A stretch of DNA of 45,866 nucleotides from a virus (taxonomy: Duplodnaviria > Caudoviricetes): positions 1 to 45,866 of IMG/VR virus record IMGVR_UViG_3300021082_000048. One strand, 5' to 3'. Under the pieces are notes generated by a model that did no database searches, was not told the origin of the DNA, and was given only the letters and a program-made list of their open reading frames with translations. Of the stretch, positions 9,346 to 45,784 are shown one piece after another (position 1 is the first letter of the stretch; the number at the start of each line of letters is the position of its first letter). Both the position numbers and the translations under genes were made by a program.

Positions 9346-10647
9346 TTACGGACCCCACGGAGTGCCGCCACTACCGTTACCATTCACGGCAGTGCCGTTG
9401 ATACTACCAACCTCCGAGTCGATCCTACCACCCACAAGTGCTGCAGGAATCCTTGTATCAAGATCAGTCACATCTGCCTGCAATGCTGCAACCGCTGCAG
9501 TCAGTGCTGGCATCTCAGTATCAAGCAGATCATCCACTGTCGTCAACGCTGCTGCCGTCGCGAGACCAGACTGAATCTCAGTCACAGCATCGCTCGCAAT
9601 TGCATCTGCATCAATCGCATTCGTTGCAATCGCTGCCGCTGTCACAACCCCAGCAGCCATAGCACCCACTGACGCATCAATCCTACCACCAGTCAACGCT
9701 GCTGGAAGCCGAGTCTGAATATCGTTCGTATCAGACTGGAGACCACCAAGCTGCGTATCAAGGTTCGCACTCGACATACCCAGCGCTGCCCGTGTAGCTG
9801 CAGCATCCAGACCACCACCAGTGTCTGGCACATCATCAATCACTACCGCCGACACCGTACTAGCGTTGTCGAAGAACGTGTTGAAGTTATCCGCCGCATC
9901 TGCCGTAACTGCATCCCCACCAATCTGCACGATGTTCGCCGGCACTGGAGCACTCGTGCTTGCCGGAGGTGAGCCCCAAATCTTGTATGTGATCGTACCA
10001 CTCGGTGTGACAGTCCACGTGTCAACCGTAACAGTGTCAGTAGACAACACATTGTCAGTGATCGACCGGAACTGCCAGTAACCCTGCGTCGAGCCAAGCA
10101 CTCCAATCACACATCCGATCAGCGTATCATCTGCGAATGCCGCAGCAGCCCTCAGCACCACTGTCGTAGCAGTTGCTGACTGAGCCGTACCCTGATCAGA
10201 AATGCCGTGCTCAGGCACAGGACCAGCTGTGCCATCGTATGCAATCTCAAGAGCGTCCGCTGCACCAGAGTCACCGCTGATCTGTACGATATTCGCATCA
10301 ACTGTTGAAGTGATGATTTCGATGTAGCATCCCATCACGATCATACCAGTAACTGTACCATGAACCAGTACACCAGCAACTCCAGCAGCAACAGCAGCGT
10401 CTGGAAGGTCCAACCGATAGTATCCATTACCGATATGCAGGAATCCACCATCTGCGTGCGCCGTTGTTAGAGCCGCCAACGTAGCTTCGGTAATGTCTAC
10501 ACTTGCTGCACCTTCCCTACGATACTCCAAGTCGATACCAGAAGTGTTATACACCACTCCTGTCTCAGGTGTGCCATCAGTCGAGTCTACAATTCGGATG
10601 ACGACAGACTGATCTGTTGACCCACCTACAATCCTCCGCGTGTGCAT
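9346..10647 (-). CDS. Tail fibre-like / structural protein
   Basis: Ala/Thr/Asp-rich, internal repeats (NIVQI.GD twice, R.PAAL.GGRID twice); GGAG RBS. Confidence 0.6.
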   Translation of the reverse strand: MHTRRIVGGSTDQSVVIRIVDSTDGTPETGVVYNTSGIDLEYRREGAASVDITEATLAALTTAHADGGFLHIGNGYYRLDLPDAAVAAGVAGVLVHGTVTGMIVMGCYIEIITSTVDANIVQISGDSGAADALEIAYDGTAGPVPEHGISDQGTAQSATATTVVLRAAAAFADDTLIGCVIGVLGSTQGYWQFRSITDNVLSTDTVTVDTWTVTPSGTITYKIWGSPPASTSAPVPANIVQIGGDAVTADAADNFNTFFDNASTVSAVVIDDVPDTGGGLDAAATRAALGMSSANLDTQLGGLQSDTNDIQTRLPAALTGGRIDASVGAMAAGVVTAAAIATNAIDADAIASDAVTEIQSGLATAAALTTVDDLLDTEMPALTAAVAALQADVTDLDTRIPAALVGGRIDSEVGSINGTAVNGNGSGGTPWGP

Positions 10648-10656
10648 CGTCAACTC

Positions 10657-11409
10657 CTAATTGTAGTGATCCATGAGTGTTACAATCCCGCCGCCGCCTC
10701 CTCCTGCTGGAGCAAGATAGTTCAGTGCAAGCACAACACAACGCCACTTCAACGTACCACCTGTAGCCGACATAGTATAGTTAGGTACCACGCTCGCATC
10801 ACCAATTGAAGTCGCAAGAATCAACGTCTGGTCACGAAAGGTCGAACCAGCAAGCTCAGACACAGATACCTGCTCTGTTCCATCACCTGCATTCGTTGCC
10901 ACACACGTCGCCCCATCTGAATGCGAAATCAAGATCAGCACCAAATCTTCTGACGCCGTCGTCGGCACAAACGCTGCAGCTCCAGACAACTGTGCAGGTG
11001 TGGTGTTTGCACCAGTATTCGTCGAAGCTGTCTGGTTTGGTGCAGCAGGGTCTACATTGTCGAAGGACGCAACAATGCCTGCATAAGTCTCAGCTGTCGT
11101 ATCACGAGTGAGAACGATCGACACTGTACCTGAAACAGCATCAGCAATGTCAGCACCCCAAACCCACTGCCTGTTTGTGTTAGTCGTAGCAGGAAAACTA
11201 AAGAGCAAGTCCATCGCTACCGCACCACCACCTAGCCCATCATCAATAGTTGGTAGTCCTGTCACCACTGCGTTCGTACCAGCTGATTCAGCAATAATCA
11301 GCAAGATGTATCTCGACAACCCAGACGGCACAGTATACGTAAGTGTCTTTGCTACAACACCACCGTTCGCCTGTGTAAACGTATCTGTGTCCATGAGAGT
11401 TACTGGCAT
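10657..11409 (-). CDS. Beta-rich structural protein
   Basis: Thr/Ala-rich 250 aa with a poly-Gly linker near the C-terminus; GGAG RBS. Confidence 0.6.
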   Translation of the reverse strand: MPVTLMDTDTFTQANGGVVAKTLTYTVPSGLSRYILLIIAESAGTNAVVTGLPTIDDGLGGGAVAMDLLFSFPATTNTNRQWVWGADIADAVSGTVSIVLTRDTTAETYAGIVASFDNVDPAAPNQTASTNTGANTTPAQLSGAAAFVPTTASEDLVLILISHSDGATCVATNAGDGTEQVSVSELAGSTFRDQTLILATSIGDASVVPNYTMSATGGTLKWRCVVLALNYLAPAGGGGGGIVTLMDHYN

Positions 11410-11421
11410 CGAGCAAACTCC

Positions 11422-12768
11422 CTAAATGAGATTAACATCTGACAAGCCAATACACAAAGCAATCCAATCTTGGTACATGTCTCTACCAACTGGTACCCTA
11501 CTACCACCACCATGTGTCAGATCGGTGTTCAACGTAGTAAAATAAGGATCAGATGGGGTAAGACCCACATCTCTTGGTGATCCACCAATAGTCGGAATGT
11601 ATGACGCACCTAGTGAAAATGCACTGTAGTACGGCTCCACGTATCGCACATTGTCTGCCGTCTCAACAAGCACACCACCCACATAAGCACGATACTTTCC
11701 ATTATCAGACCCAACATCATTCAACTGCAAAATGAACTCTTCCTTCAACAACACACCTTCTGATCCAGTGCCTACGATAGCATTAATCGAGCGTGGATTT
11801 GGGTAGATACCATACCCTGCCGTAGTACTCCATACAGGATACCCACTACCATCCACTGTCACACCATCCCACACCTTAGCGTTCTGGTTCGCAAAGTTGT
11901 ATGTAAGCCCTTCGGTAATCGCTCCTCCACCACCCGTAACATTGTAAGTACCACCACCAATGTAAGGATTGTCATACGACTGCCGTGTACCCGACTTAGG
12001 ATCAGTTCCAGCCCAGGTATAAGTAGCCGTATGCAGTGCAAAGAATGCCGGCTTGGTTCCTGCATTCGAACCAATAGTACCAGAATGTGCTACCGTGCAG
12101 ATGTAATAGTTCGTTCCCACCAACGTACCAGTCAGCTTCTTTCCCGTCTCCAACACTAGCGTTGTTGCTGTGTTGCTTTCAATCTTTACACCACGCTCAG
12201 AGTTTGCAGCAAAGCGAATAAAGCGGCCAACATGCTCATTAACTGTCCACGACTTCGCGGTGTCCACAAGCTGTGTAAGCGTTGTTCCAGTCTTGGATGT
12301 ACCAGAATCAACGATTGTATTCGTAGCAGAATACTCTCCAGCTTGTGACCAGTTGGGAGAATACCGACGCCACATATGAATGTATAGTACTTTCGGCCGC
12401 CTACCACTAGCCCCCAAGCCTCCTACCGTCAGCTTCATTGGACCAGCACCACCAAAGTCTACACCTGGCCAATACCCTCCATCAGGACCATCAATATCAG
12501 GAAACTTGATCCGCATGCAGAAGCCACTCGGGCTCGTAGGATCGGCCACGATGTTTGCTGCATACAGATAACTATGAAGAGTTGTAAACCCATAGGCATC
12601 TACCGCTCCTCCAGTAAACTGATACGAGGTAGGTAGAACATCACCTAGCCACGACTGGTATGGAGTAGTCAAGCCGTTTGGTGCGTTAGGACCAAGACCA
12701 GTAAACGAATCCGCTGATCCATGACCTACACGACGGCCAGCCTTGTGCCGAAAGAGTAGTCCACTCAT
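11422..12768 (-). CDS. Lectin/polysaccharide-lyase-like putative receptor-binding protein, paralog B
   Basis: Shares MSGLLFRHKA..RVGH, GLGPNAPNGL, KSWTVN, WDG.TVDG.GYPVW with its neighbour; LQLNDVGSDNGKYRAYVGG jelly-roll-like motif. Confidence 0.6.
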   Translation of the reverse strand: MSGLLFRHKAGRRVGHGSADSFTGLGPNAPNGLTTPYQSWLGDVLPTSYQFTGGAVDAYGFTTLHSYLYAANIVADPTSPSGFCMRIKFPDIDGPDGGYWPGVDFGGAGPMKLTVGGLGASGRRPKVLYIHMWRRYSPNWSQAGEYSATNTIVDSGTSKTGTTLTQLVDTAKSWTVNEHVGRFIRFAANSERGVKIESNTATTLVLETGKKLTGTLVGTNYYICTVAHSGTIGSNAGTKPAFFALHTATYTWAGTDPKSGTRQSYDNPYIGGGTYNVTGGGGAITEGLTYNFANQNAKVWDGVTVDGSGYPVWSTTAGYGIYPNPRSINAIVGTGSEGVLLKEEFILQLNDVGSDNGKYRAYVGGVLVETADNVRYVEPYYSAFSLGASYIPTIGGSPRDVGLTPSDPYFTTLNTDLTHGGGSRVPVGRDMYQDWIALCIGLSDVNLI

Positions 12769-14108
12769 GGCTTACCTGCCACAATCAACTTGTGCAAATC
12801 AGTGTAGATCGTGTCCTCAGGCATCTTGAGACCACCACCATAGTCAAACGACTGCCACATATAACCCCACTTAACTTCCGATACAGCTAGCGCTACATTG
12901 CGACTCACCCCACCAACCGTTACAGTAATCTGTGCTTGGTTTGCTGACACATATGCCTCAGCGTAAATCTTATCTGTAGCAGATCGCTGAAGCACACCAT
13001 TGAGCCAGTAGCGATAGATGCCATTAGCTACTCCAGGAGTGTTCAATACTAGCTCCCACTCTTCGTCAATAATCTCACCAACCACAAAGCCGGTACATGG
13101 AGCAAACGGAGTGGAAGTCGCACGTCCTGCCGTCCACACCGGATAGCCGTTACCATCAACAGTACTACCATCCCATCGCTGAGCACCTTGATAATGGAAC
13201 TCACCGTCGATCCCCTCAGTAAGAGTAGGATCACCAAAGTCTGTAGTAAACCCACCAATAAAGTGGTTATCAGCCAACGAACCCACGGAATCTACAGACG
13301 GTGGCGTAGCCGCTACATTCGCGTAAGTACGCCGACCATAAATCTTCGGCCAAAAGAAACCCTTCACACCAGTGTTCTGTCCAACCGCTGCACCAGTATC
13401 TGCAATATCATAGATGATATATACCTGTCCTGCTCCTAACGCATAGTTTGTACGATAAGGACTTACAAACGTGATAGACGTAGCAGTATTACTAGCAATC
13501 GGCCAGCCCTTACCTACTGCACCCAACGTCGAAGTATTGCGAAGCCACTTACCAGCCCATTGATTAACTGTCCATGACTTCGTACTATCATTGATGACAC
13601 TAACAGTAGTCCCTGAAGTCATCGTTCCTGAATCAAGTATCGACCCAACCATTGTTCTATCATTACCGTCAATAATCGTAAAGTTCGGACTGAACCTACG
13701 AATCGCGCGAACGTAGAGTGTCTGCCAATTCTGGTCATCTATATCCGAGCGAAGATAACCTGATCCCGGTGACTGACCACCAAAGATATTCGGTGGAAAG
13801 GACGCGCCACAGACAGCTCTATCATTTGCCCAGCCATGATGCGTGAAGCGAAGAACTGTTCCAGTCTCTTCATTCTCAGGATCAGCCACAAGCGAATATG
13901 CATACTGTTGCTGATCATAAGTGTTACCCATTCCATACTGATTATTTGTAACAGGAAACGTAGGACCTCTAGCTGGCAACTCATCCCCATAAAAGATTGG
14001 GAATGGTGTCTCAAGTCCATTAGGCGCATTAGGACCAAGGCCGAATGGCACAGCTGTAGTGTGACCTACCCGCTTTGCTGCTTTATGTCTAAATAGCAAG
14101 CCACTCAT
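12765..14108 (-). CDS. Lectin/polysaccharide-lyase-like putative receptor-binding protein, paralog A
   Basis: WELVLNTPGVANGIYRYWLNG resembles PL14/ConA-like domains; paralogous to the neighbour. Confidence 0.6.
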   Translation of the reverse strand: MSGLLFRHKAAKRVGHTTAVPFGLGPNAPNGLETPFPIFYGDELPARGPTFPVTNNQYGMGNTYDQQQYAYSLVADPENEETGTVLRFTHHGWANDRAVCGASFPPNIFGGQSPGSGYLRSDIDDQNWQTLYVRAIRRFSPNFTIIDGNDRTMVGSILDSGTMTSGTTVSVINDSTKSWTVNQWAGKWLRNTSTLGAVGKGWPIASNTATSITFVSPYRTNYALGAGQVYIIYDIADTGAAVGQNTGVKGFFWPKIYGRRTYANVAATPPSVDSVGSLADNHFIGGFTTDFGDPTLTEGIDGEFHYQGAQRWDGSTVDGNGYPVWTAGRATSTPFAPCTGFVVGEIIDEEWELVLNTPGVANGIYRYWLNGVLQRSATDKIYAEAYVSANQAQITVTVGGVSRNVALAVSEVKWGYMWQSFDYGGGLKMPEDTIYTDLHKLIVAGKP

Positions 14109-33998: not shown

Positions 33999-35246
33999 GT
34001 GCACATTATCCAAGTAGAAGTCTCTGCTATCGTAGTCCCTGATGACAGGTTCAGGGGAATCAACAAGAAGGTTGAGGATATTGCCACAAGCATCCTCAAG
34101 TATGGGCAGCTACAGCCTATCATCATTACGCCTGAAGGTGTCCTAGTTGATGGTGGTCACCGTCTTGCCGCCGCCAAGCTCAACTGTTCCAGCCACATCG
34201 CGGCAGTCTACAGCAACGACGTTGATCCGTTGTACCTCAGGGAAGTGGAACTAGAAGCCAACATCATGCGGCTTGAGATGACTTGGCAGGAGAAAGCACA
34301 TGCACTCAAGACATTGCACGAACTCAAAGTTGCACGCAATCCTAACGCTTCCCAAGCGCAGACTGCTGCAGCTGCTGGTGAAGGATCGCAGCGGGCGATC
34401 AGCCAGGCGATTAGCATTTCTCGTATGGTTGAACTCTTCCCAGAAATCGGAGAGGCGAAGTCCCTCAACCAAGCACTGAGCCTAGCAAAGGCCAAGGCTA
34501 AGGGGGTCATGCGAGTAAAGGAAGTTCGAGACGATCCGGAAGTCTATGCTGCCATCGAGGACAAGCTGATCCTCGGCGACTCAGTCGAAGTCATCAAGAC
34601 GATCCCAGATCACACGTTCAACGCTATCATCACCGACCCTCCATTCGGAATCAACTACGATGACCGTAAGGCTGGAACCGTTGGAAGTATTACAGATTAC
34701 GAAGATGGTCCTGAGGCATATGAACGCCTCCTCACAATGGCGCCGGATTTGTACCGCACTATTAAACCGGACGGCTGGCTCATCTGGTTTCTCGGAGTGT
34801 CTTGGTACGAGCGGTGCAAGGCCGTCTTCCGTGATGCTGGATTTATTGTCGACGAGATACCCGTTATCTGGGACCGCAGTCAGGGTCGTTGTTTTACCAC
34901 TAGACCTGATCGGTATTTTGGCAGAGCGTATGACATTGCTCTTCATTGTATCAAGGGAGACCCGCAGATGGTACTGCGAAGTCGCCCCAATATCATTAGG
35001 GTCGAGCCCGTATCTAACGCCGATCGAGAGACTCTCGTTGAACGTCCAGTTGAGCTCTATGCTGAACTCATCCGACGGCTTACTGTTCCCGGCGAGACGG
35101 TCGCTGATTTCTTTGCTGGGTCAGGCAGCTGTCTGGCTGCGGCGGCAAGCACGGGCCGTAGGTACTTCGGAGTCGAAATGAATCCTGAGCGTCGTGCTTG
35201 GGCACTCAAGAAGATTCGTGCCCACACGCGGGATGATGCAGCATGA
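33999..35246 (+). CDS. ParB N-terminal + HTH + beta-class N6A/N4C DNA methyltransferase fusion
   Basis: GQLQPI, DGGHRLAA (GxxR), ANIMRLEM; HTH-like SQAQTAAAAGEGSQRAISQ; TDPPF precedes DFFAGSGS. Confidence 0.88.
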   Translation: MHIIQVEVSAIVVPDDRFRGINKKVEDIATSILKYGQLQPIIITPEGVLVDGGHRLAAAKLNCSSHIAAVYSNDVDPLYLREVELEANIMRLEMTWQEKAHALKTLHELKVARNPNASQAQTAAAAGEGSQRAISQAISISRMVELFPEIGEAKSLNQALSLAKAKAKGVMRVKEVRDDPEVYAAIEDKLILGDSVEVIKTIPDHTFNAIITDPPFGINYDDRKAGTVGSITDYEDGPEAYERLLTMAPDLYRTIKPDGWLIWFLGVSWYERCKAVFRDAGFIVDEIPVIWDRSQGRCFTTRPDRYFGRAYDIALHCIKGDPQMVLRSRPNIIRVEPVSNADRETLVERPVELYAELIRRLTVPGETVADFFAGSGSCLAAAASTGRRYFGVEMNPERRAWALKKIRAHTRDDAA

Positions 35247-35536: not shown

Positions 35537-35769
35537 CTGTGAATCCGCAAATAGATTTCAACGAGGGTTTCCTAAAGCACACGGAAACTCTAAAGCTGGC
35601 GTTCGCGAACTATCAGGACTTGATGGAGAAGCACGGGACGATGATCGCTGAATACAAGGCAGTGTGTCAACAGGTTGACTATGCACGAAAGCGCATCACT
35701 GATGCACAGACGAGTCTCAATGACTTCGTCGGAAAGGCAGCACGTGAAGCTAATACAAGAGGGACCTAA
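35533..35769 (+). CDS. Coiled-coil hypothetical protein
   Basis: ATGA overlap. Confidence 0.65.
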   Translation: MTVNPQIDFNEGFLKHTETLKLAFANYQDLMEKHGTMIAEYKAVCQQVDYARKRITDAQTSLNDFVGKAAREANTRGT

Positions 35770-38158
35770 AAACGCGAAGATAGTACTCGTGGGCGAAGCA
35801 CCAGGTTCAACGGAGATGGCTACGGGTCTACCCTTCCAAGGAGGCGCAGGTGAAGTCCTCAACCGCATGCTGGATAGAACAGGAATTGAACGACACCTAT
35901 GTTTCGTTACTAACATTTGTCACGTCCAGCCGCCGGGAAACAAGTTCGACTGGTTCCTTAAGCCGAAGCCCCGTGCTGAGTTCGTGCTTGGGCTCATGCA
36001 GCTCAAGAAAGACATTGAGGAGATTAAGCCTAATCTTGTCATTGCCCTCGGGGCACAGCCACTAAGGTTCCTAACGGGTAAGCAGAGTATTGATAAATGG
36101 CGTGGGTCCATCCTTGAGTCTACACTGGTCAAGGGCCAAAAGGTCATTGGCACCTATCACCCTGCTTACATCTTGCGGATATGGGACTACAAGGCGGTAG
36201 CCGAGTTTGATCTTTCCCGGTGCGCTGGGGACCAGCACTACCCAGAACTCCGCCACCCGGCCCGAAACCTCACACTCGACCCCCCGCCACACCTACGCCC
36301 GCAACTCCAAGCGGAGCTACTCGCCGCACCGTACCTCAGCGTGGATATAGAATGTGTCGAAACTCCCACTGGATGGAAGCTCAGCTGCGTCGGGTTCGCT
36401 GACCGACCGGGCCGGGGCGTTGTCATTCCTATCAGGGATGCAGAAGACCTTCGGTATGTCAAGACTCTCTGCGAGTCCAATGTCCCGAAAGTATTCCAAA
36501 ACGGATCTTTTGATTGCACAGTTCTTCTCCAAAACGGTATCCGAGTGGCTAACTTTGCATGGGATACCATGCTCGCTCACCACTCGCTATATCCCGAATG
36601 TGCGTCTAGCGCCGATGAGGTTTCAAGCCTTGGCGGCAAGAAGCGGCAAAGTGCTATTGCTAAGGGCCTGGCTTTTCTCAACTCCATCTATACGCGCCAG
36701 CCGTTCTACAAAGACGACGGTAAGCTATGGACGGAAACAGGCGACCTGCAAATGTTTTGGCGCTATAACGGCCTTGACGCTACGGTTACTGCCGAAATAC
36801 ATGAGCTACAAAAAGATGACCTACGAGCGTTCGGAACTGAGGGAGTGTTCCAACACGAAATGTCGCTTGTGCAGCCGCTCATGGATATTACTCGTCGAGG
36901 CATCAAAATAGACTTGGCGCTGCGCGCACAACTCAAGGAGAAGAATGAGTGGGAAATCAACAACCTGCAGAACTTCCTTGATGCAGCGCTGGGTGAGACG
37001 GTCAACGTCAAGTCATCACCACAGATCACACGCATCCTCTACGAGAAGTTGAAACTGCCCGTCAAGAAGAACAAGAAGACCGGCAACCCAACAGCTGACA
37101 AGGATGCGGTAACAGAACTGGCGGCTAAGTACAGCCACCCAATGCTCCTCACAATTCTCAAGATTCGCCAGCGTAGGGATTACGTTGAGCGCTATCTGAA
37201 TGCGAAGGTGGATGATGATGGAAGAATGCGATGCAGCTTCGATATCACAGGAACCCGAAGCGGCAGGCTATCGTCGCGTCAATCTATCTACGGATCGGGG
37301 ACAAATCTACAGAATATTCCTTCGCGGAAGCCTGAGGGAGAAGCCATTCGTAGAATGTTCGTGGCCGATGATGGAAAGATCTTGGTGTCCCGTGACTATA
37401 AACAGGCCGAAGCTTGGTTGGTGGCGTATCTCTCAGGCGCCGAAGGACTCATCGAACTCCTTAATGACCCTAGCCGAGACATGCATACTGAGAATGCTGC
37501 TCGCATCTTCGGTATCAAAGTTGAGCAAGTTAATCCAGAACAACGGTACTTGGCAAAGAGAGTCGTTCACGCTTCTAACTATGGAATGGGAGCAAATCGC
37601 CTCGTCGAGTTGGTCAACGAAGATACTGAAGCTACGGGGATATCGCTTAAGCATCGTGATGCTCAGACTCTCATCGACAAATACTTTCTGCTTTACCCTG
37701 AGATTCGATCGGTCTACTGGCGAGAGGTACTCAATGAGCTTCGGTATTCTAGAACATTGAACACGCCTTTCGGCAGAAAGAGAATGTTCTATGGGCGCTG
37801 GGACGACAAGCTCGAGCGTGAGGCTTATAGTTATATCCCTCAATCAACGGTCGGAGACTTGGGTGGAAGAGCAATTGTTTCTTGCTATGATACCGTCGAG
37901 CGAGTCGTGCCGAATGCTGAAGTCCTGCTCAATGTCCACGACTCGATTCTCATGCAGTGTGATCTACAAGACTTGGAAGTCGTTCAAGCAGGAATGGCCA
38001 GAGCTATGGAGATTCCTGTCACTGTCAAAGGACGGACGTTCACCATTCCTACTGATTGTAAAGTGGGGTTCAACTGGGGGAACCGTCCCAAAAAGAATCC
38101 AGAACTAAACCCCCTAGGCCTTCGGGACTATGAGGTTTGGATAAAGGAGGCCGCATGA
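35744..38158 (+). CDS. polA: Family A DNA polymerase with N-terminal uracil-DNA glycosylase (family 4-like) domain
   Basis: UDG motifs GEAPG, PFQG, HPAYILR; exo motifs VDIE, NGSFD, YNGLD; pol motifs SGRLSS, DYKQAE, R...K...H..NYG, VHDS. Confidence 0.93.
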   Translation: MKLIQEGPKNAKIVLVGEAPGSTEMATGLPFQGGAGEVLNRMLDRTGIERHLCFVTNICHVQPPGNKFDWFLKPKPRAEFVLGLMQLKKDIEEIKPNLVIALGAQPLRFLTGKQSIDKWRGSILESTLVKGQKVIGTYHPAYILRIWDYKAVAEFDLSRCAGDQHYPELRHPARNLTLDPPPHLRPQLQAELLAAPYLSVDIECVETPTGWKLSCVGFADRPGRGVVIPIRDAEDLRYVKTLCESNVPKVFQNGSFDCTVLLQNGIRVANFAWDTMLAHHSLYPECASSADEVSSLGGKKRQSAIAKGLAFLNSIYTRQPFYKDDGKLWTETGDLQMFWRYNGLDATVTAEIHELQKDDLRAFGTEGVFQHEMSLVQPLMDITRRGIKIDLALRAQLKEKNEWEINNLQNFLDAALGETVNVKSSPQITRILYEKLKLPVKKNKKTGNPTADKDAVTELAAKYSHPMLLTILKIRQRRDYVERYLNAKVDDDGRMRCSFDITGTRSGRLSSRQSIYGSGTNLQNIPSRKPEGEAIRRMFVADDGKILVSRDYKQAEAWLVAYLSGAEGLIELLNDPSRDMHTENAARIFGIKVEQVNPEQRYLAKRVVHASNYGMGANRLVELVNEDTEATGISLKHRDAQTLIDKYFLLYPEIRSVYWREVLNELRYSRTLNTPFGRKRMFYGRWDDKLEREAYSYIPQSTVGDLGGRAIVSCYDTVERVVPNAEVLLNVHDSILMQCDLQDLEVVQAGMARAMEIPVTVKGRTFTIPTDCKVGFNWGNRPKKNPELNPLGLRDYEVWIKEAA

Positions 38159-39339
38159 CACGGCTAGTAAAGAACTGGTTGCAAGGATATCTAGCGTACA
38201 CTGCTGAATCCGAATCACCAGAGGGGTACCATCTATGGGTTGGAATAAGTTGTATCGCGGGAGCTATTCGTCGGAAAGCGTTTTTTCCGATGGGGTACTT
38301 CCTACTATATCCAAATATGTATACTGTCCTCGTGGGACCTCCTGGTCGATGCAAGAAGTCCACGGCTATGCGTGTTGGACGGCAGATGTTGGGTGGAGTG
38401 GAAGGCATTCACTTCACTACGGATTCTGTCACACGCGAGCGCTTGATAATGGACTTGGGCCAGACGTTTGTAGACGGCCATTCATCTATGACCGCATTCT
38501 CCAGCGAGTTTGCGTCATTGCTGACGTCATCAGGTATGGATATGGTCGTGTTCTTGACAGACATCTTCGATTCACCCGACGAGTGGACACATCGAACCAA
38601 GATTGGTGGGACGAATACTATCAAGGCGCCGTACCTGAACCTTATAGGCGCCACTACGCCGGACTGGATTGCGAAAGCTATGCCCTTGGATACGATTGGC
38701 ATTGGACTGACTTCTCGGATTGTCTTTGTTTACGAGGATACCCCACGTATCAAGGATCCATTCCCGGTCTTGTCGGAGGGCCAGAAGAAGCTGGGTCAGA
38801 TGTTGATACAGGATTTGTCGAAGATTGCTTTAATCGCGGGACAATACCGCTTGACTGGTGATGCAGAAGAATACTACACGATATGGTATCGTAAGCGAAT
38901 CGAGAACCCTAACCCTACGAATGACCCACGGTTGAATGGGTACTTCGAGCGCAAGCCTATGCACATGCTCAAGCTATGCATGATCCTTGCAGCTGCCGAG
39001 ACGGACAGTACAATAATCGAACTTGAGCATGTGCAAGAAGCGATGGCTCAGCTCGAACGTACCGAGCAGTCAATGCCAAAGGTCTTTGCCAATGTAGGTA
39101 AGAATCCTTTCGCTACGGATATTGAAGAGATCTATACTGCACTCGTACAGGTCCATCCTGACGGTATGATCTTTGGAGAGATACTCAACCGATTCAAGCA
39201 TAACCTGCAAGTCGAGGACCTGTCTGGTATCCTCAATGGGATGCAACAGATGGGACATGTAGTGCTGCGGGAGTCACACTATTACGCGAACTTAGCGTTT
39301 CTCCGCACAGCACTACAGAAGGAGGTTAGCGATTCATGA
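38155..39339 (+). CDS. P-loop helicase-like protein (DUF3987-like)
   Basis: PNMYTVLVGPPGRCKKST, SEF, NLIGATTP, GLTSR; coupled to polA by ATGA. Confidence 0.75.
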   Translation: MTRLVKNWLQGYLAYTAESESPEGYHLWVGISCIAGAIRRKAFFPMGYFLLYPNMYTVLVGPPGRCKKSTAMRVGRQMLGGVEGIHFTTDSVTRERLIMDLGQTFVDGHSSMTAFSSEFASLLTSSGMDMVVFLTDIFDSPDEWTHRTKIGGTNTIKAPYLNLIGATTPDWIAKAMPLDTIGIGLTSRIVFVYEDTPRIKDPFPVLSEGQKKLGQMLIQDLSKIALIAGQYRLTGDAEEYYTIWYRKRIENPNPTNDPRLNGYFERKPMHMLKLCMILAAAETDSTIIELEHVQEAMAQLERTEQSMPKVFANVGKNPFATDIEEIYTALVQVHPDGMIFGEILNRFKHNLQVEDLSGILNGMQQMGHVVLRESHYYANLAFLRTALQKEVSDS

Positions 39340-42300
39340 TTGAATCAGTCGGAGGACTCATACTGTCGTTTGCCGTTTGCTGCTGGGCAATGGCAGTCTT
39401 GGCTGACCTCGCAGCAAGGTTTGTTTGCTTTGCAAGTTCAATCATTGCTTCCTGTATCTCACGGATCAGGGACTCTTTCGTCTGACCCTGTGGCATCATC
39501 TTGGGATCGAGCTGACGGATATCTTGGATAGCCTTCCTCATATCCGTCAGATCGGCCCTCGACTTACGATACAGTTCTGCAACACCCAAGTCCTCAATGT
39601 GATCTACAGCGTACTTCCCTGCCTCAACACCCAGCTGCTGGTCAACAAGTTCCTTCACACCCTGTTCCACACGATCAGACTTGTTAGCCATGATATAGAA
39701 CTCATGGATCGACTGAGTCTGCACAGCTGGCCACTGTGGGAACGCCGAGCCAACAAATGGAATCTCCTCGTGCATCGGCATCTCCTGCGTCCGGCTATAC
39801 TTAAGCATATTACTGATGCCCTGCAGTGCAGCATACGTCAGTGTACCACCGAGGTTCCTAGCAATGTAATCAAGTCCCGCAGGTGAAAGGGCTCGCTGTA
39901 GCCCTTGGCTATCAACATCATCTGTCCACTTTCCCATAAGACTAGATACTTCTTGTGAAATACCAGTAGTGTTCTGGTTCCGCAAGAACTGAGGATCAAG
40001 GTTTCGGTCGGGAGTAATCTGTCCACCGAAGTTCAAGTCCTTGTTAGCCCACAGTGACAACGGTACACTCGCAACAAGTGGTGTAAGATTCAGCTGCACA
40101 TCATTGAGCATCGCTTCCTTCCAAGTATCGTAAGCAATAGGATCATTGTTACGCTTGTTATCAAGTACAGCTTCAATCGCAGTACCGAACAGCTCACCCT
40201 CAAACAAGGGCTTTGGAATCTTAATCAGACCATGATCTGGTCCACGCATCCACCAGAACTTACGCCCTGAAGGAGTACCACGAAGCTCCTTGATCTGTTC
40301 ATCATCCTCATATGCAAAGTACAGTAGCATACTGGGGATCATCACTCCAGCCACACCTCGGGCAAACCATTTCGCTGGAGCTTCCTTTGCTGCATCGAAC
40401 GTAGCTGACATACCTTGGATCGAAGGATTCAAGAACAGTGTCATCTTGTTCAACGCTTGTGCTACCGCCCAGTCACCACGATTGCTGAAGTTAGCACCGT
40501 ACTTCTTTGTGGAATACACAGCATCCAGAACACTACTACCACGACCGCGCTCAGATAGATAAGCCCCAACCCTAGCCGCATCGCTAATCGAGATGATGGC
40601 ATTGGCATACGCGTCCTTCACTCCTGTCCACGTAAGCGTCTTCGCGTCGTTGATTACCTCTCCAATCTTTGTTCTTGCCGGAGCAGTCTGCACCTGTCGG
40701 AGAAGAGATAGACCGTCTCTAGTAACCTGGAGTCCTTGGGACGCGATAGAATCTCCAACTCCGCCAGCAGTGATAAACTTACGGTACTCCGGAGATTTAG
40801 TAATGATATGGAAAGCTCCAGCAATTGAACCTCCCGCCGACCGCAGCAAGCTAATTCCAGGCGTACCACCGTAGGCTCCGTTCATGTAGTATTGCCATAC
40901 ATCACGGATAGACTGGTATGCTACAAACACAGGATTGGCTGTAATACCAATCTTGGCTACGTTAGTCAGGGCTTCAATGGGAGCAAGACCTGCCATCACG
41001 TATTGCATTTCCTGCGGTCGAAAAGACCGAAACATTCTCTCAAATGGTTCAGCAAGCCGGACAGCAACTGGTTCACCGTTCTCATAGTAACGTAGTATTC
41101 CATTCGTCACATTGAGGGATTCATCGGTAAGACCCATCAGCATGTTCTTGGCTTCGCTAGCACTTATCTCAGTTCCTGACGCTGCGAGGTCTGCCTTCAA
41201 TGCCTTGGCTTGGTCATCAAGACCAGCAATGTCAGGTGCCTTGCTCAACCGTTGACCAACAAACTGACGGGCTTCCTTTGGGAGCAGATCAATGTATTGC
41301 ACGAACACCTTCGCCATCTTGTTCAACTCAGCAGCACGCTGGATTCTACCTGTCATGTCGATGGCAGCCTCAAAGGGATTCTGGATATCTCTAGTAGAGC
41401 CCACCATCTTATGACTGGTCTGCGGAACTGCAGCACCCTTGATGTTCTTCTTTACATCTAGTTGTCCCGCCGACTGTCCTGGCTTATCGTTAAACAGTCT
41501 ACGGATCGCAACGTACATTTCGTCACTATTGAACTTCTGTCGGACTTCTGCGCTGATAAGCCCATCCCGCACTTGCAAATCAGCGAGGGCGCGAAAGTAC
41601 TTTGTGAGAGCTTCTCTGGCCTTATGCATCTTTGGAGTAGCTCTAGTAAACATCTCTCGTGCGGCGTCATAGTCAATACCCAATGTCTTTCCCCGCGTAG
41701 CACGGACCTCCAGCTCACGTGCAGCGGCAGCAAGATCACCAATCGTTCGAGTATCACCATCGTTCAAAGCTGCGATATGTTGCAGCGACGGGATTGGCTG
41801 ACCCTCATCATCCAAGAATGGACGAGGATTACCCAGCTCGTCGAAGTACGCTGGACCATCACCCTTCACCCATGCATCTGTCCGTCCCCGGTACAGACCA
41901 AAGAGTTCAGCCTGCTTACCAAGGTTCGACTGGAAGCTTACCTTCGCTCGGCCAATCGCAGCCGTGAGACGCTCTGCTGGAAGGCTTCTCCTCGCTATAC
42001 CCATCCAAGCGTTGTGGAGATAATGGCTAAGACCGATACGTTCAGTGAAGTTCTGATCCTCAATTGAACGAACCTTCTCACGCAGCTTACGCTGATAAGC
42101 AGGGGTACCATCAGTCTTAGCTTGCTGGAAACGCTTGTTCACATGTGAAGCACCAAGTGCCCCAGCAACGCCAATGTACAGTGCATGCTCAAGCCGCTGC
42201 TGATCGCTGTCAGCAGGCAACAGAAAACCTCCTGCGAACCCAGCCACAAAGCCAGTCACTGCAGGGTTCGTCTGTACGATCATCCCTCCAGCTCCACCAG

Positions 42301-45300
42301 GATTGTTCCTACGTGAAGCCTGTTCAGCAATCACATCATCCAGACGCTTAACCAATGGATGCGTACGACGTTCGATCTTACCAATCATCGAGGTCTCAAC
42401 TCGAAGAGCATCAGCTACCTTGTCGAGCGTAGCATCATTCATGCTCTTGACTGGAGCCTTCTTCACCGTGTTGTTGTCCAGCTTGGCTTCGACAGGTTCC
42501 TTTGCCTTGGCCTTAACTGACATAGTATTAATGCCAGTCTTTTCTCCTACCACCTCAACCGGAACATGCTCGTATGTAACATCAACAAGCTTCTCACGCT
42601 CAGGTGTAGTAAGTGTGTGATAATTGTCTGGCAGATCGCCAGCCTTGATTGCCTGACGCTCGGCGTCTGCGTTGTTGAGGGCACGATATTCGTTACCATT
42701 GGCCTTGATCTTGACGACCGCACGAGCGATAGATGGCCCATCGGGGACCACGATTGGGCCTTCCACAGGCTGCTTGGTGCCTTTCTTCTTAGCTGCAGCT
42801 GAAGCTCTAGCTGCTGCGAAGTCCTCAACAGTAAAGGCTTTCTCTGTTGGAGGCAGAGTACGACGGTGTTCCTTGACCTGTCGAAGGGCATCACCATAGG
42901 CTGCAAGTGTGATCTGCTTAGCATCAAGCGCGTCTTCAAGCTTGTCGAGCAGTCCATTCGTCTTGTCCAAATCATTAGAGGTCATGTCGCTAATCGACTT
43001 CTCAAGGACAAAGCCCTCGACAGTCTGGTTAACGGGACCAGCAGCCTTCTTCTGTCCACGAGGCTTCGTTGGCTTACTTGCAGCAGCCACATGATCCTTC
43101 GTCATCTGAGCAATCTCTTCCTCAGATGGCTTCAACGTCTTGATCTTCTCAAGAGTCAATGCACGATCAGCCTCAACAGTGTTCTTACCATGTGCAACTG
43201 AAATACCAGTCACGTACTTCTTCCACTTCTTAACCCCCGTGATCGGTTCGTCAGGGATCAGCTCACGTAGCCGCTTTGCGAATGCTTCAGCCTTACCCTT
43301 AGGCACGGCAACCGCAAACTCATCACCACCAACACGGAACCCACGGCTACCGTCTTGTACGATACCAAGCTCGTGTTCGATCTGACGGATGGCATCTCCC
43401 ACACGGGCAAAGAATGCATTCATACCTTCATGTGTACGAACTGCATTGCCAGCATGGAGAGACTTCATGTCAGCATAGACTACCTCAACTTCAGGATCAG
43501 CGTCGATAGACTTCTGAGCCTTTGCCCATGCATTAGCGTTACCAAGACCAGTCTGGGGATCAATCTCAGCACCCCGCTGAGCTTCCATTCGCTCGTTAAC
43601 AGTACGAGCAAGATGCTCAACTGCAACTTCAAGCTCTTCCTTGGACAGCTCCAGCTCGTCGTCGCTCATCTCCTCAACTGGCTTCTTCGTCTCAGCATCA
43701 GGCTTGATTTCCCCAACAACTTTACCCTCTGCACCAGTCGACACTTCTGGTTCTTCAGATGGTGTAATGTCAGGCTCATCTGGCTGCTTAGCTATCTGCT
43801 CATCAGCAAGTTCTGCTGTTGGCTTCTTAAGCTTCTCCATTACTGCATCTGCAATCTTAGCATTTGCTTCTTCTCGCGTAAGCAGTGCAGTCCCATCCTC
43901 CTGGGGCGCCGTGGGCGCAACAGCGTCCGGGGTGGTCGAGACCTGAGCGGCGTCGGCAGGGGCAGGCGGGGGAGTAGGTGTAGCCTCTCCCGCGGTGGCG
44001 TCCGTTGGTGCGGTGTCCAGACCGTAGCTGGTATGACCCTCAGCCAGATGCCCAATCTCACCCTCACCCATTATAAAGGTGCCATCAATCCCTTCAAACT
44101 TAACCTCGTAGAATCCCTCACCAGCGTGATTCTTCTTGAACTTCACGACAGTTCCACGAGTGTCCTTTGAGGGTGTAGCAGTTTCGATGACACCAGCTGT
44201 GCCTTCCTTTGTGGTAGTATGAGCACCACGTTGTAGGGCTCTATCAGGTGCACGGATGATCGTGCCAACGACAGGCTTCCCACTGAGTGGATGACCTTCT
44301 GGTACATCCTTCCATGTATTCTCAGCGGCAACAGCTGTAGTCGTGGCTTCGGGTGTAACTGTACCAACCTCTGGCTGATTCACGTTTGAATCAGGTACAG
44401 GCGCAGCTTCTGGTGGAGCAGCCTTCTTAGTCTCGATGGCAGCCTTAACCTTGGCGATCGCTTCACGGGTAGTTTGAGCAGTAGCCTCATCCTTCGCTTC
44501 AAGCACCGACCGTTCCAGTTGCTTAAGCACACGCTGAAGCTGATCCTTGCTCGCCTTCTGCATCCACTCAGGCTGATTAAGGACTCGATTCTCGTTGATT
44601 ACATTCTGCTGACCAACCTTAGTCAGGTCCTTGGTCCACGACTTACCGGGATTCGCAGCTTCCCACTTAGAGCGAATACCCTTCCTGGTCTCCTGCTCAG
44701 CCTTACGCTGGGCAATCATCGCAGACTCTTGTTCCTTCAGCTTGGCTGCTTGTGCTGCCCTTGCGGGATCAACTGAACCACCTTCACCAGCTGGCTTGGT
44801 GGGGTCAACGTCTGGTAGCTTCTTACCACCAAACCCAAACTTCGGGAACTTGACAGTGGACAATGCGGCCGCGAACGTGCTTGGTCCAACCACAGCAGCC
44901 AGTGCCTGCATCCGTTGAGTGTCGCTTTCGTACCTTGGATTCATGAACACGTCTGCGACCTGCACTACATCAACAGCCCCGGAGCCTACGAGGTTAGCGA
45001 TGATCTTCTGTGTTCTAGTCGCATTCGGGCCAAACCCTACACTGATCGCTTCGAGTGCCGCAGCCGCCCGTGGACTTGTGCGTGCTGCAAGTTGCAACGC
45101 CTTGAACCCTTGGTTGTTAGCAATCGCCCAAGGATTCGCTTCACCCATTACACCAGTTGCCAGTGTACCAGCGACGTTGCCTACCGTGCCTTCGATGCCC
45201 TGTGGATCAAGCCCAAGCTTCACTGTAGCCTGTGCCTCTTCGATTCTGCCACGCATCTTCTCAGCTACGTCGATACCCAGATTGGATGGTAGCGACAATG

Positions 45301-45784
45301 CAAGGTCTGACAACCCGAGTAGGTTGTTGTTGACAAGACCTACCGCTGCACCACGTGCAAGATTGTCACCAACCTTACGTTGGACAGTCTTCTGGTTCGT
45401 CCAGAATGGGTCCTCGATCTTACTGCGAAGCATTGTCAGACGTTTACGCTGTGCCTCACCAAGATTCGGACGCTTGAGAAGTTCGTCGATCTTCGCGACG
45501 TTCTCGGCCTGCCCTTCATGTTCAGCTTCCAGAATGTCAAGTGAGCGTGGCTGCTCGTTGTTATCGAGAGCCATCTGCACACGAGCCTTCGCAGTGACTG
45601 GCGTCAAGCGATCCTTACCACCAGCTTCTACGTTCCTGCTAACTCGTGGTGCAGGTGCTTCGTCCTCGAACTGTGGCTGTCCAGAAGATGCCGTGCTATC
45701 AGCATCCTCCCACTCAATCCCCTCTACGGCCTGAGTGGAGTCAGTGCTTTCCCACTCAAGGTCCGAAAACTTAGGTCCGGTCAC
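39326..45784 (-). CDS. Giant internal virion/ejection-type polyvalent protein with GGDEF and C-terminal LPD38-like domain
   Basis: 2152 aa; DPQTGLGN...RVGGDEF at codons 819-823; IKIPKPLFEGELFG LPD38-like motif; Gly-rich hydrophobic segments. Confidence 0.8.
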   Translation of the reverse strand: MTGPKFSDLEWESTDSTQAVEGIEWEDADSTASSGQPQFEDEAPAPRVSRNVEAGGKDRLTPVTAKARVQMALDNNEQPRSLDILEAEHEGQAENVAKIDELLKRPNLGEAQRKRLTMLRSKIEDPFWTNQKTVQRKVGDNLARGAAVGLVNNNLLGLSDLALSLPSNLGIDVAEKMRGRIEEAQATVKLGLDPQGIEGTVGNVAGTLATGVMGEANPWAIANNQGFKALQLAARTSPRAAAALEAISVGFGPNATRTQKIIANLVGSGAVDVVQVADVFMNPRYESDTQRMQALAAVVGPSTFAAALSTVKFPKFGFGGKKLPDVDPTKPAGEGGSVDPARAAQAAKLKEQESAMIAQRKAEQETRKGIRSKWEAANPGKSWTKDLTKVGQQNVINENRVLNQPEWMQKASKDQLQRVLKQLERSVLEAKDEATAQTTREAIAKVKAAIETKKAAPPEAAPVPDSNVNQPEVGTVTPEATTTAVAAENTWKDVPEGHPLSGKPVVGTIIRAPDRALQRGAHTTTKEGTAGVIETATPSKDTRGTVVKFKKNHAGEGFYEVKFEGIDGTFIMGEGEIGHLAEGHTSYGLDTAPTDATAGEATPTPPPAPADAAQVSTTPDAVAPTAPQEDGTALLTREEANAKIADAVMEKLKKPTAELADEQIAKQPDEPDITPSEEPEVSTGAEGKVVGEIKPDAETKKPVEEMSDDELELSKEELEVAVEHLARTVNERMEAQRGAEIDPQTGLGNANAWAKAQKSIDADPEVEVVYADMKSLHAGNAVRTHEGMNAFFARVGDAIRQIEHELGIVQDGSRGFRVGGDEFAVAVPKGKAEAFAKRLRELIPDEPITGVKKWKKYVTGISVAHGKNTVEADRALTLEKIKTLKPSEEEIAQMTKDHVAAASKPTKPRGQKKAAGPVNQTVEGFVLEKSISDMTSNDLDKTNGLLDKLEDALDAKQITLAAYGDALRQVKEHRRTLPPTEKAFTVEDFAAARASAAAKKKGTKQPVEGPIVVPDGPSIARAVVKIKANGNEYRALNNADAERQAIKAGDLPDNYHTLTTPEREKLVDVTYEHVPVEVVGEKTGINTMSVKAKAKEPVEAKLDNNTVKKAPVKSMNDATLDKVADALRVETSMIGKIERRTHPLVKRLDDVIAEQASRRNNPGGAGGMIVQTNPAVTGFVAGFAGGFLLPADSDQQRLEHALYIGVAGALGASHVNKRFQQAKTDGTPAYQRKLREKVRSIEDQNFTERIGLSHYLHNAWMGIARRSLPAERLTAAIGRAKVSFQSNLGKQAELFGLYRGRTDAWVKGDGPAYFDELGNPRPFLDDEGQPIPSLQHIAALNDGDTRTIGDLAAAARELEVRATRGKTLGIDYDAAREMFTRATPKMHKAREALTKYFRALADLQVRDGLISAEVRQKFNSDEMYVAIRRLFNDKPGQSAGQLDVKKNIKGAAVPQTSHKMVGSTRDIQNPFEAAIDMTGRIQRAAELNKMAKVFVQYIDLLPKEARQFVGQRLSKAPDIAGLDDQAKALKADLAASGTEISASEAKNMLMGLTDESLNVTNGILRYYENGEPVAVRLAEPFERMFRSFRPQEMQYVMAGLAPIEALTNVAKIGITANPVFVAYQSIRDVWQYYMNGAYGGTPGISLLRSAGGSIAGAFHIITKSPEYRKFITAGGVGDSIASQGLQVTRDGLSLLRQVQTAPARTKIGEVINDAKTLTWTGVKDAYANAIISISDAARVGAYLSERGRGSSVLDAVYSTKKYGANFSNRGDWAVAQALNKMTLFLNPSIQGMSATFDAAKEAPAKWFARGVAGVMIPSMLLYFAYEDDEQIKELRGTPSGRKFWWMRGPDHGLIKIPKPLFEGELFGTAIEAVLDNKRNNDPIAYDTWKEAMLNDVQLNLTPLVASVPLSLWANKDLNFGGQITPDRNLDPQFLRNQNTTGISQEVSSLMGKWTDDVDSQGLQRALSPAGLDYIARNLGGTLTYAALQGISNMLKYSRTQEMPMHEEIPFVGSAFPQWPAVQTQSIHEFYIMANKSDRVEQGVKELVDQQLGVEAGKYAVDHIEDLGVAELYRKSRADLTDMRKAIQDIRQLDPKMMPQGQTKESLIREIQEAMIELAKQTNLAARSAKTAIAQQQTANDSMSPPTDSIMNR
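39330..39347. promoter_or_regulatory. Palindromic site, copy 10 (CGATTCA-TGAT-TGAATCA)
   Basis: Lies where the two convergent arms overlap. Confidence 0.85.
44376..44393. promoter_or_regulatory. Palindromic site, copy 11 (TGATTCA-CGTT-TGAATCA)
   Basis: Inside a low-complexity linker of the giant protein (encodes DSNVNQ). Confidence 0.8.

What the first reader, a model, noticed from the sequence alone, without database searches (positions are those of the whole stretch)
43150..43570. GGDEF nucleotide cyclase domain inside an ejection-type virion protein, with an altered base-specificity residue
Seen: DPQTGLGN, then YADMKSLHAGNAVRTHEGMN, then RVGGDEF (43316-43330). Against the consensus DxDxFKxxNDxxGHxxGD, the metal-binding Asp, the Asn and the His are kept, the Lys becomes His, and the guanine-reading Asp (PleD D344 equivalent) becomes Asn. 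There is no RxxD inhibitory site. Known: Ser/Thr at that Asp in Hypr GGDEFs (e.g. Geobacter GacA) switches the product to 3'3'-cGAMP, and large polyvalent phage proteins are proposed to be delivered with the DNA. Inference: the virion may inject a feedback-free cyclase making c-di-GMP or a non-canonical dinucleotide at entry, to alter host surface or receptor state or to jam nucleotide-signalling defences.
Basis: partly seen in the sequence, partly recalled or inferred. Interest (0 to 1): 0.85.

Follow-up and report, generated by a model that had tools for sequence, protein, structure and literature searches.

The report
Remodelled GGDEF cyclase in phage protein
A giant protein of an uncultured short-tailed phage, likely carried in the virion and injected, contains a real GGDEF signalling-enzyme domain whose base-reading pocket is heavily altered yet conserved, so it is predicted to make c-di-GMP and possibly mixed purine cyclic dinucleotides in the host; the design was predicted in 2017 and no activity has been measured here.

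Summary
Residues 741-885 of a 2152-aa LPD38 protein (39326-45784, minus strand) form a GGDEF-fold domain (Z 15.3 to WspR). It keeps the metal Asp, the guanine Asn, GGDEF and the phosphate Lys, has Asn at the PleD D344 site and no RxxD. GGDEF cargo in phage polyvalent proteins, and the interference idea, were published in 2017 (PMC5512222); this scan has noted it on at least five other genomes. Asn alone is not special: 13 of 154 related domains against 8 of 171 cellular-type controls (p=0.18). It is not the Hypr Ser/Thr. What is unusual is that six of seven scored pocket positions deviate, yet a relative keeps 15 of 18 pocket residues (linker 15%). Among ten GGDEF-bearing orthologues the site is Asp 6, Asn 3, Ser 1, and none keeps the cross-dimer Arg. 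Syntenic relatives lack the domain, so it is swappable cargo. Best reading: a feedback-free cyclase, likely delivered at entry, with relaxed G/A selectivity. Activity, product, virion presence and host are untested. New variant of a known kind.

The parts
39326..45784 (-). 2152-aa large polyvalent / ejection-type protein (P0001), last gene of the minus-strand morphogenesis block, tail-to-tail with the primase gene
   Evidence: GTG start overlaps the upstream stop (GTGA) with GGAG upstream (sequence printed); same position in syntenic phages L174-L176
43130..43564 (-). GGDEF-fold domain, residues 741-885
43565..43654 (-). Helix leading into the domain (residues 711-740), likely the dimerising stalk
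   Evidence: helix in model for residues 730-739; 19 of 30 identical in P0003 against 37 of 250 in the linker before it; dimer role inferred
43535..43537 (-). A750, at the cross-dimer Arg site (GacA Y304; PleD R300 by offset)
   Evidence: role of the site from PMC6456294 section 13
43418..43471 (-). Remodelled base-binding segment D772-N789: D772 and N780 kept; H777 for Lys, A781 for Asp, T784 for Gly, M788 for Gly, N789 for Asp
   Evidence: 15 of 18 identical in P0003
43346..43357 (-). Position of the I-site; reads QDGS, no RxxD
   Evidence: sequence; family count
43316..43330 (-). GGDEF signature (G819-F823), preceded by R817
   Evidence: D821 and E822 invariant in 156 of 156 domains
43145..43147 (-). 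K880, phosphate-binding Lys (PleD K442-like)
   Evidence: Lys in 145 of 156 domains
43655..44404 (-). Variable Pro/Ala/Thr-rich linker, residues 461-710
   Evidence: 37 of 250 identical in P0003
40265..42274 (-). Conserved chassis, residues 1171-1840
   Evidence: 548 of 670 identical in P0003; C-terminal half matches 49 phage records including PTXU04
39755..40261 (-). LPD38 domain, residues 1842-2010
   Evidence: Pfam PF18857 E 2.9e-14, 54 bits, cut-off 27

Best explanation
The domain is a GGDEF module carried as swappable cargo in an LPD38 giant protein that is likely packaged in the virion and released into the cell with the DNA, where two copies would pair through the lead-in helix and, lacking an I-site, are predicted to condense purine NTPs into cyclic dinucleotides with relaxed G/A selectivity (c-di-GMP plus some 3'3'-cGAMP). 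Shown: the fold, the intact metal/phosphate/general-base residues, no RxxD, loss of both known guanine determinants (D344-site Asn, cross-dimer Ala), conservation of the altered pocket in a relative, presence/absence of the module among orthologues. Inferred: packaging, delivery, dimer, catalysis, product, and a role in shifting host second-messenger state (surface/motility or nucleotide-based defence) in the first minutes of infection.
For: Fold and core: (D772 155/156, N780 156/156, D821 and E822 156/156, K880 145/156). Pocket conserved rather than decaying: 15 of 18 against 94 of 150 for the domain and 37 of 250 for the linker. Two guanine determinants lost together; Hypr enzymes with Ala or Ser at the cross-dimer site make mostly cGAMP, and a GGDEF (not GGEEF) motif is what tolerates a non-Asp reader (PMC6456294 sections 12-13); this family has Asp there in 154 of 154. 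Orthologues picked by the C-terminal half: 10 of 13 carry GGDEF, site D 6 / N 3 / S 1, cross-dimer Arg 0 of 10. One clade for five Asn domains is rejected, p-AU 0.0004. Three syntenic phages have the same chassis without GGDEF, one with an HATPase domain instead. LPD38 proteins found in virions: phi24B gp47, JC1 gp69; PTXU04 gp25 needed for infection.
Against: Asn at the site is not enriched: 13 of 154 against 8 of 171 controls, p=0.18; its scatter on the tree equals shuffled labels (12 changes, shuffled mean 12.6), which fits neutral tolerance as well as tuning. All characterised Hypr enzymes in the papers I saw have Ser/Thr; I found no test of Asn. The transition-state Lys is His, the R446-like site is Leu, L294-like is Gln and the GD Gly is Met: this copy is among the three most deviant of 154 and may be slow or not a synthase. 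Non-Asp and loss of the cross-dimer Arg are not significantly linked (p=0.08). Only one close relative supports conservation, with no DNA for dN/dS. A few injected copies give little product (own estimate). A phage making 3'3'-cGAMP could trigger cGAMP-type CBASS (recalled).
Confidence: 0.35

Rival explanations
1. It is an ordinary feedback-free diguanylate cyclase: Asn still reads guanine and the product is c-di-GMP only.
For: Asn occurs in 8 of 171 cellular-type controls, mostly with otherwise canonical motifs; 140 of 154 family members and 6 of 10 orthologues keep Asp; a Ser swap in GSU3350 still gave only c-di-GMP.
Against: Six of seven scored pocket positions changed together and are kept in P0003; 160 of 171 controls deviate at one position or none; a close orthologue has the Hypr Ser (P0060).
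Confidence: 0.3
2. It no longer makes a cyclic dinucleotide alone: it binds NTP or nucleotide signals, makes a linear or other product, or pairs with host GGDEF proteins to poison or hijack them.
For: Positions that are near-invariant in controls vary widely in the family: Lys 106/154 vs 169/171, ND Asp 88/154 vs 168/171, GH His 89/154 vs 168/171. Degenerate GGDEF domains with GTP-sensing or ATPase roles are described.
Against: The general-base Glu, which acts across the dimer, is invariant (156 of 156; role), and the lead-in helix is conserved.
Confidence: 0.2
3. The cyclase acts late, from newly made protein in the producing cell, rather than from the few injected copies (this can combine with either product).
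For: The gene lies in the late block; related standalone GGDEF genes occur in Yuavirus phages beside a KlcA anti-restriction gene, with no virion chassis; few injected copies limit yield (inference).
Against: Repeated fusion to virion-type chassis (118 of 153 hit proteins are 1000 aa or longer; LPD38 in 10 of 20 hand-picked) makes most sense if delivery matters.
Confidence: 0.15
4. It is a dead, drifting relic kept only as part of the chain.
For: Below the Pfam cut-off; long stem branch of 1.4 in the domain tree; 3 of 13 orthologues lack the module.
Against: Pocket (15/18) and GGDEF loop (13/15) are more conserved than the rest of the domain; all metal ligands intact.
Confidence: 0.07

Closest known systems
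GGDEF domains in phage/prophage polyvalent proteins (Iyer et al. 2017, PMC5512222; section 22 read whole, passages elsewhere)
   Same: GGDEF inside a giant late-gene protein; same proposal of interference with host nucleotide signalling; LPD38 listed as phage-type
   Different: Paper calls it 'not very widespread' and, in the parts I read, does not analyse the pocket; here 316 clusters at 50% identity match, and the specificity site toggles D/N/S. Its supplement could not be read.
Hypr GGDEF enzymes (GacA, Bd0367; PMC6456294 sections 12-13 and passages, PMC9140294 passages)
   Same: Non-Asp at the D344 site, GGDEF rather than GGEEF, non-Arg cross-dimer residue
   Different: Asn instead of Ser/Thr; no I-site, no sensor domain; Lys-to-His and further pocket changes; phage cargo. 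Works possibly like one, not filed as one.
Canonical diguanylate cyclases (PleD, WspR)
   Same: Fold (Z 13.6 and 15.3), D327, N335, E370/E371, K442 equivalents, lead-in helix
   Different: D344, K332, R300 and R446 equivalents changed; shortened domain; no RxxD
LPD38 virion proteins: phi24B gp47, JC1 gp69, PTXU04 gp25 (passages)
   Same: LPD38 near the C-terminus, giant size, end of morphogenesis genes; sequence match to PTXU04 E 3e-7
   Different: No GGDEF reported for them in the passages seen
Standalone GGDEF genes of Yuavirus/Bordetella phages (MP1412_43)
   Same: Short phage GGDEF domain related to standalone members of this family
   Different: About 156 aa, not fused to a virion chassis
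Panoptes OptS/mCpol (PMC12657218, passages)
   Same: GGDEF-related palm fold (Z 8.3); a Ser/Asn swap shifts product ratios
   Different: Host defence enzyme making 2',3'-linked signals, no GGDEF motif; its Ser/Asn site was not shown here to equal N789

Membership tests
GGDEF domain (fold family) | [quoted passage not shown] | tested here: met
   (Z 15.3, rmsd 3.4, 146 aligned)
GGDEF domain (fold family) | GG[D/E]E[F/Y] signature with metal Asp and guanine Asn | tested here: met
Pfam PF00990 as curated | Score over gathering cut-off 23.8 bits | tested here: not met
   15 to 20.3 bits; a divergent member by fold and profile, many relatives pass
Canonical diguanylate cyclase | Asp at PleD D344 | tested here: not met
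   N789
Canonical diguanylate cyclase | Transition-state Lys (K332) and cross-dimer Arg | tested here: not met
   H777, A750 (roles)
Canonical diguanylate cyclase | Phosphate-binding K442 and R446 | tested here: inconclusive
   K880 kept; Leu at +4, with Lys at +2 and +5
Canonical diguanylate cyclase | c-di-GMP synthesis from GTP | not testable with these tools
   needs assay
Hypr GGDEF | Ser/Thr at the D344 site | tested here: not met
   Asn; Ser only in orthologue P0060
Hypr GGDEF | GGDE[F/Y] (Asp in the middle) and mostly non-Arg cross-dimer residue | tested here: met
Hypr GGDEF | 3'3'-cGAMP synthesis | not testable with these tools
   needs assay
Phage large polyvalent protein (LPD38 type) | LPD domain plus unrelated enzymatic cargo in one large chain | tested here: met
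Phage large polyvalent protein (LPD38 type) | Encoded with late virion genes; cargo varies among orthologues | tested here: met
Phage large polyvalent protein (LPD38 type) | Present in the virion and delivered with DNA | not testable with these tools
   only homologues shown in virions

The most novel reading that the evidence does not exclude
Phages inject a family of cyclic-dinucleotide synthases whose product is retuned lineage by lineage (Asp, Asn or Ser at the base reader, cross-dimer Arg dropped) to match, jam or avoid the host's nucleotide signals; this copy, with the most rebuilt pocket in the set, makes a mixed or non-canonical dinucleotide and would define an Asn-type third specificity class of GGDEF enzyme.
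Probability: 0.22. Interest if true: 0.8.

Novelty: new variant of a known kind. Interest (0 to 1): 0.45.

Why it matters
Phages are known to destroy or soak up nucleotide signals; an injected enzyme that makes them has only been predicted. This family is large, and natural D/N/S variants on nearly the same chassis give a ready-made panel to ask two open questions in one LC-MS experiment: are phage cargo GGDEFs active, and what does Asn at the base-reading site do to product choice.

Tried and rejected
Single-sequence PDB search gave nothing significant; single-sequence AF2 model was weak, pLDDT 60. Viral-contig scans with the query domain or the C-terminal half found no close relative. No cultured phage with this domain in a giant protein was found: 2 weak unannotated hits among 50,697 records. 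'Asn is phage-specific' rejected. 'Asn lineage is one clade' rejected. Whether the domain was swapped onto this chassis is unresolved (p-AU 0.50 and 0.21). Read laying gave no strain variants for dN/dS; no RNA holder listed. No Rfam match or tRNA; 35 early ORFs gave no anti-defence, sponge or c-di-GMP receptor family in Pfam or PHROGs. No 19-residue window over 1.6 hydropathy in the protein. Host not found: best genome hit is a 2776-aa GGDEF-DnaJ-methylase-SNF2 protein in a Gemmatimonadales MAG (L096), a different chassis with Asp. Literature searches with no paper: phage+GGDEF+ejection protein (69), viral diguanylate cyclase (70), GGDEF+D344N (79); listings without an experimental test seen. 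Hallberg 2016 was not held and may include Asn variants; eLife 2019 supplements had no hit for five terms.

Full report
Setting. The window is a 45,866-base virus record, 91% complete by CheckV. It has terminase, SU10-type portal and adaptor, capsid, a UDG-PolA fusion and a primase: a short-tailed phage. Runs holding the DNA are freshwater sediment. The host is unknown. The finding lies in the 2152-aa ORF at 39326-45784, minus strand, the last gene of the morphogenesis block, with LPD38 at residues 1842-2010.

Observation. The segment scores under the Pfam GGDEF cut-off (20.3 against 23.8 bits), but a model from a four-row alignment has pLDDT 81 and matches GGDEF structures best (WspR Z 15.3, rmsd 3.4, 146 aligned; PleD 13.6; GacA 13.9; adenylyl cyclases 9.4 or less). 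The register is ungapped against canonical relatives, so N789 stands at PleD D344. PleD roles are from PMC7288161 and PMC12943098 (passages); numbers G339, H340, G343 and R300 are by offset. Kept: D772, N780, R817, GGDEF, K880. Changed: A750 (cross-dimer Arg), H777 (Lys), A781, T784, M788, N789, and Leu at the R446-like site. No RxxD. A contig from another study matches 43296-43446 without a difference.

The family. A search of 1.84 billion representatives gave 316 hits at E<=0.001; the best 150 were listed. With three earlier proteins, 153 proteins gave 156 domains; 118 of 153 are 1000 aa or longer, median 1924. These have no genomic context, so phage origin is not shown for each; 10 of 20 hand-picked ones carry LPD38 and others carry ART, SNF2 or ddrB-ParB domains, and viral contigs L002, L003, L009, L012 encode such proteins. 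The catalytic residues are near-invariant. The specificity site is Asp 142, Asn 13, Ser 1.

Is the Asn special? As controls I used GGDEF domains from 158 metagenome and genome loci: 175 domains, 2 giant ORFs dropped, 171 of the remaining 173 with intact core; 154 of 156 family domains have an intact core. Asn: 13 of 154 against 8 of 171, Fisher p=0.18. The controls are biased (picked by likeness to the query, with near-duplicates, cellular origin not checked for each). So Asn alone is no sign of a phage innovation. What differs is the rest of the pocket: Lys 106/154 vs 169/171, ND Asp 88/154 vs 168/171, GH His 89/154 vs 168/171, cross-dimer Arg 58/154 vs 89/171. The query, P0003 and P0017 deviate at six of seven scored positions, the most in either set. 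RxxD is at the exact place in 1 of 154 family domains and absent in 42 of 77 controls.

Decay or selection? P0003 is 61% identical overall. It shares 15 of 18 pocket residues, 13 of 15 around GGDEF, 94 of 150 in the domain, and 37 of 250 in the linker. The odd pocket is therefore being kept, on the evidence of one relative. On a quick tree the 13 Asn rows need 12 changes, as shuffled labels do (mean 12.6; starred branches force at least 3). In a 17-row tree without the trait columns, one clade of five Asn domains is rejected (p-AU 0.0004). Among 13 orthologues picked by the C-terminal half, 10 carry GGDEF: Asp 6, Asn 3, Ser 1, with Lys 5, Gln 3, Ala 1, Ser 1 and no Arg at the cross-dimer site. 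Of 7 loci found through the polymerase, the 3 closest have the same chassis in the same place and no GGDEF; the other 4 have a large gene that does not match. The module is cargo.

Mechanism. LPD38 proteins were found in virions of phi24B (preprint 10.64898/2026.04.10.717836, passages) and JC1 (PMC9144972, passages and Table 6), and PTXU04 gp25 is needed for infection (10.1101/2023.09.18.558157, passages); packaging of this protein is inferred from them. GGDEF catalysis needs a dimer, with the motif Glu acting across it (PMC6456294 section 13); that Glu is invariant and a conserved helix leads into the domain, so homodimer catalysis is likely but was not modelled. In GacA both the Watson-Crick reader and the cross-dimer residue set the product, and only GGDEF tolerates a non-Asp reader. 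The query has lost both guanine determinants and has GGDEF. An amide can in principle read G or A (own knowledge). I give relaxed G/A synthesis at entry 0.35, c-di-GMP only 0.30, non-synthase or host-DGC partner 0.20, late action 0.15 (overlapping), dead relic 0.07. Against the lead reading: Asn is untested in the papers seen, the Lys-to-His and Gly-to-Met changes could cripple catalysis, few copies are injected, and cGAMP could alarm a CBASS host (recalled).

Novelty. Iyer et al. 2017 describe GGDEF in phage polyvalent proteins and propose interference with host signalling; its supplement could not be read and may list this architecture. Five earlier notes of this scan report the same design on other genomes, one with Thr at the site (unchecked). 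Searches found no paper, and listings 11, 55, 73 and 122 showed no experimental test; subscription journals are not covered. Not filed as canonical DGC or as Hypr, since a defining residue of each is missing. Verdict: new variant of a known kind; interest 0.45. The added value is a conserved, rebuilt pocket and a natural D/N/S series on one chassis that makes product choice directly testable.

Noticed in passing
P0060 (2022 aa, residues about 583-690): Close orthologue with Ser at the D344 site, intact GGDEF and LPD38: the true Hypr signature in a phage giant protein; its nearest chassis relatives P0276 and P0278 have Asp.
   Followed up: partly
P0119, P0128, P0146, P0149, P0154 (164-176 aa): Small standalone members of the same family with a shared N-terminal helix motif; Gly replaces the transition-state Lys in 38 of 154 family domains.
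   Followed up: partly
L005-L008, L010 (viral contigs): Standalone phage GGDEF genes of about 188 aa with His for the Lys, as in the query, but Asp kept at the specificity site.
   Followed up: no
window 35675-38158: Uracil-DNA glycosylase fused to family A DNA polymerase; 284 relatives at E<=1e-100, many on 45-52 kb contigs: a large uncultured podo-like group.
   Followed up: partly
window 9346-14108: Four ORFs (435, 250, 448, 447 aa) between terminase and portal region with no Pfam, PHROG or NCBIfam match.
   Followed up: no
window 33999-35246: ParB-like domain fused to an N6/N4 DNA methyltransferase.
   Followed up: no
L174:13503-21515: Orthologous LPD38 protein carries an HATPase_c domain and no GGDEF.
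   Followed up: partly
window ends (1 and 45866): The same protein is on a 50,494-base contig, so about 4.6 kb are likely missing; in L175 and L176 genes of 170-420 aa lie upstream of the giant gene.
   Followed up: partly
P0091, P0275, P0277, P0280: One-residue deletion in the GGDEF loop with Asp and Glu kept.
   Followed up: no
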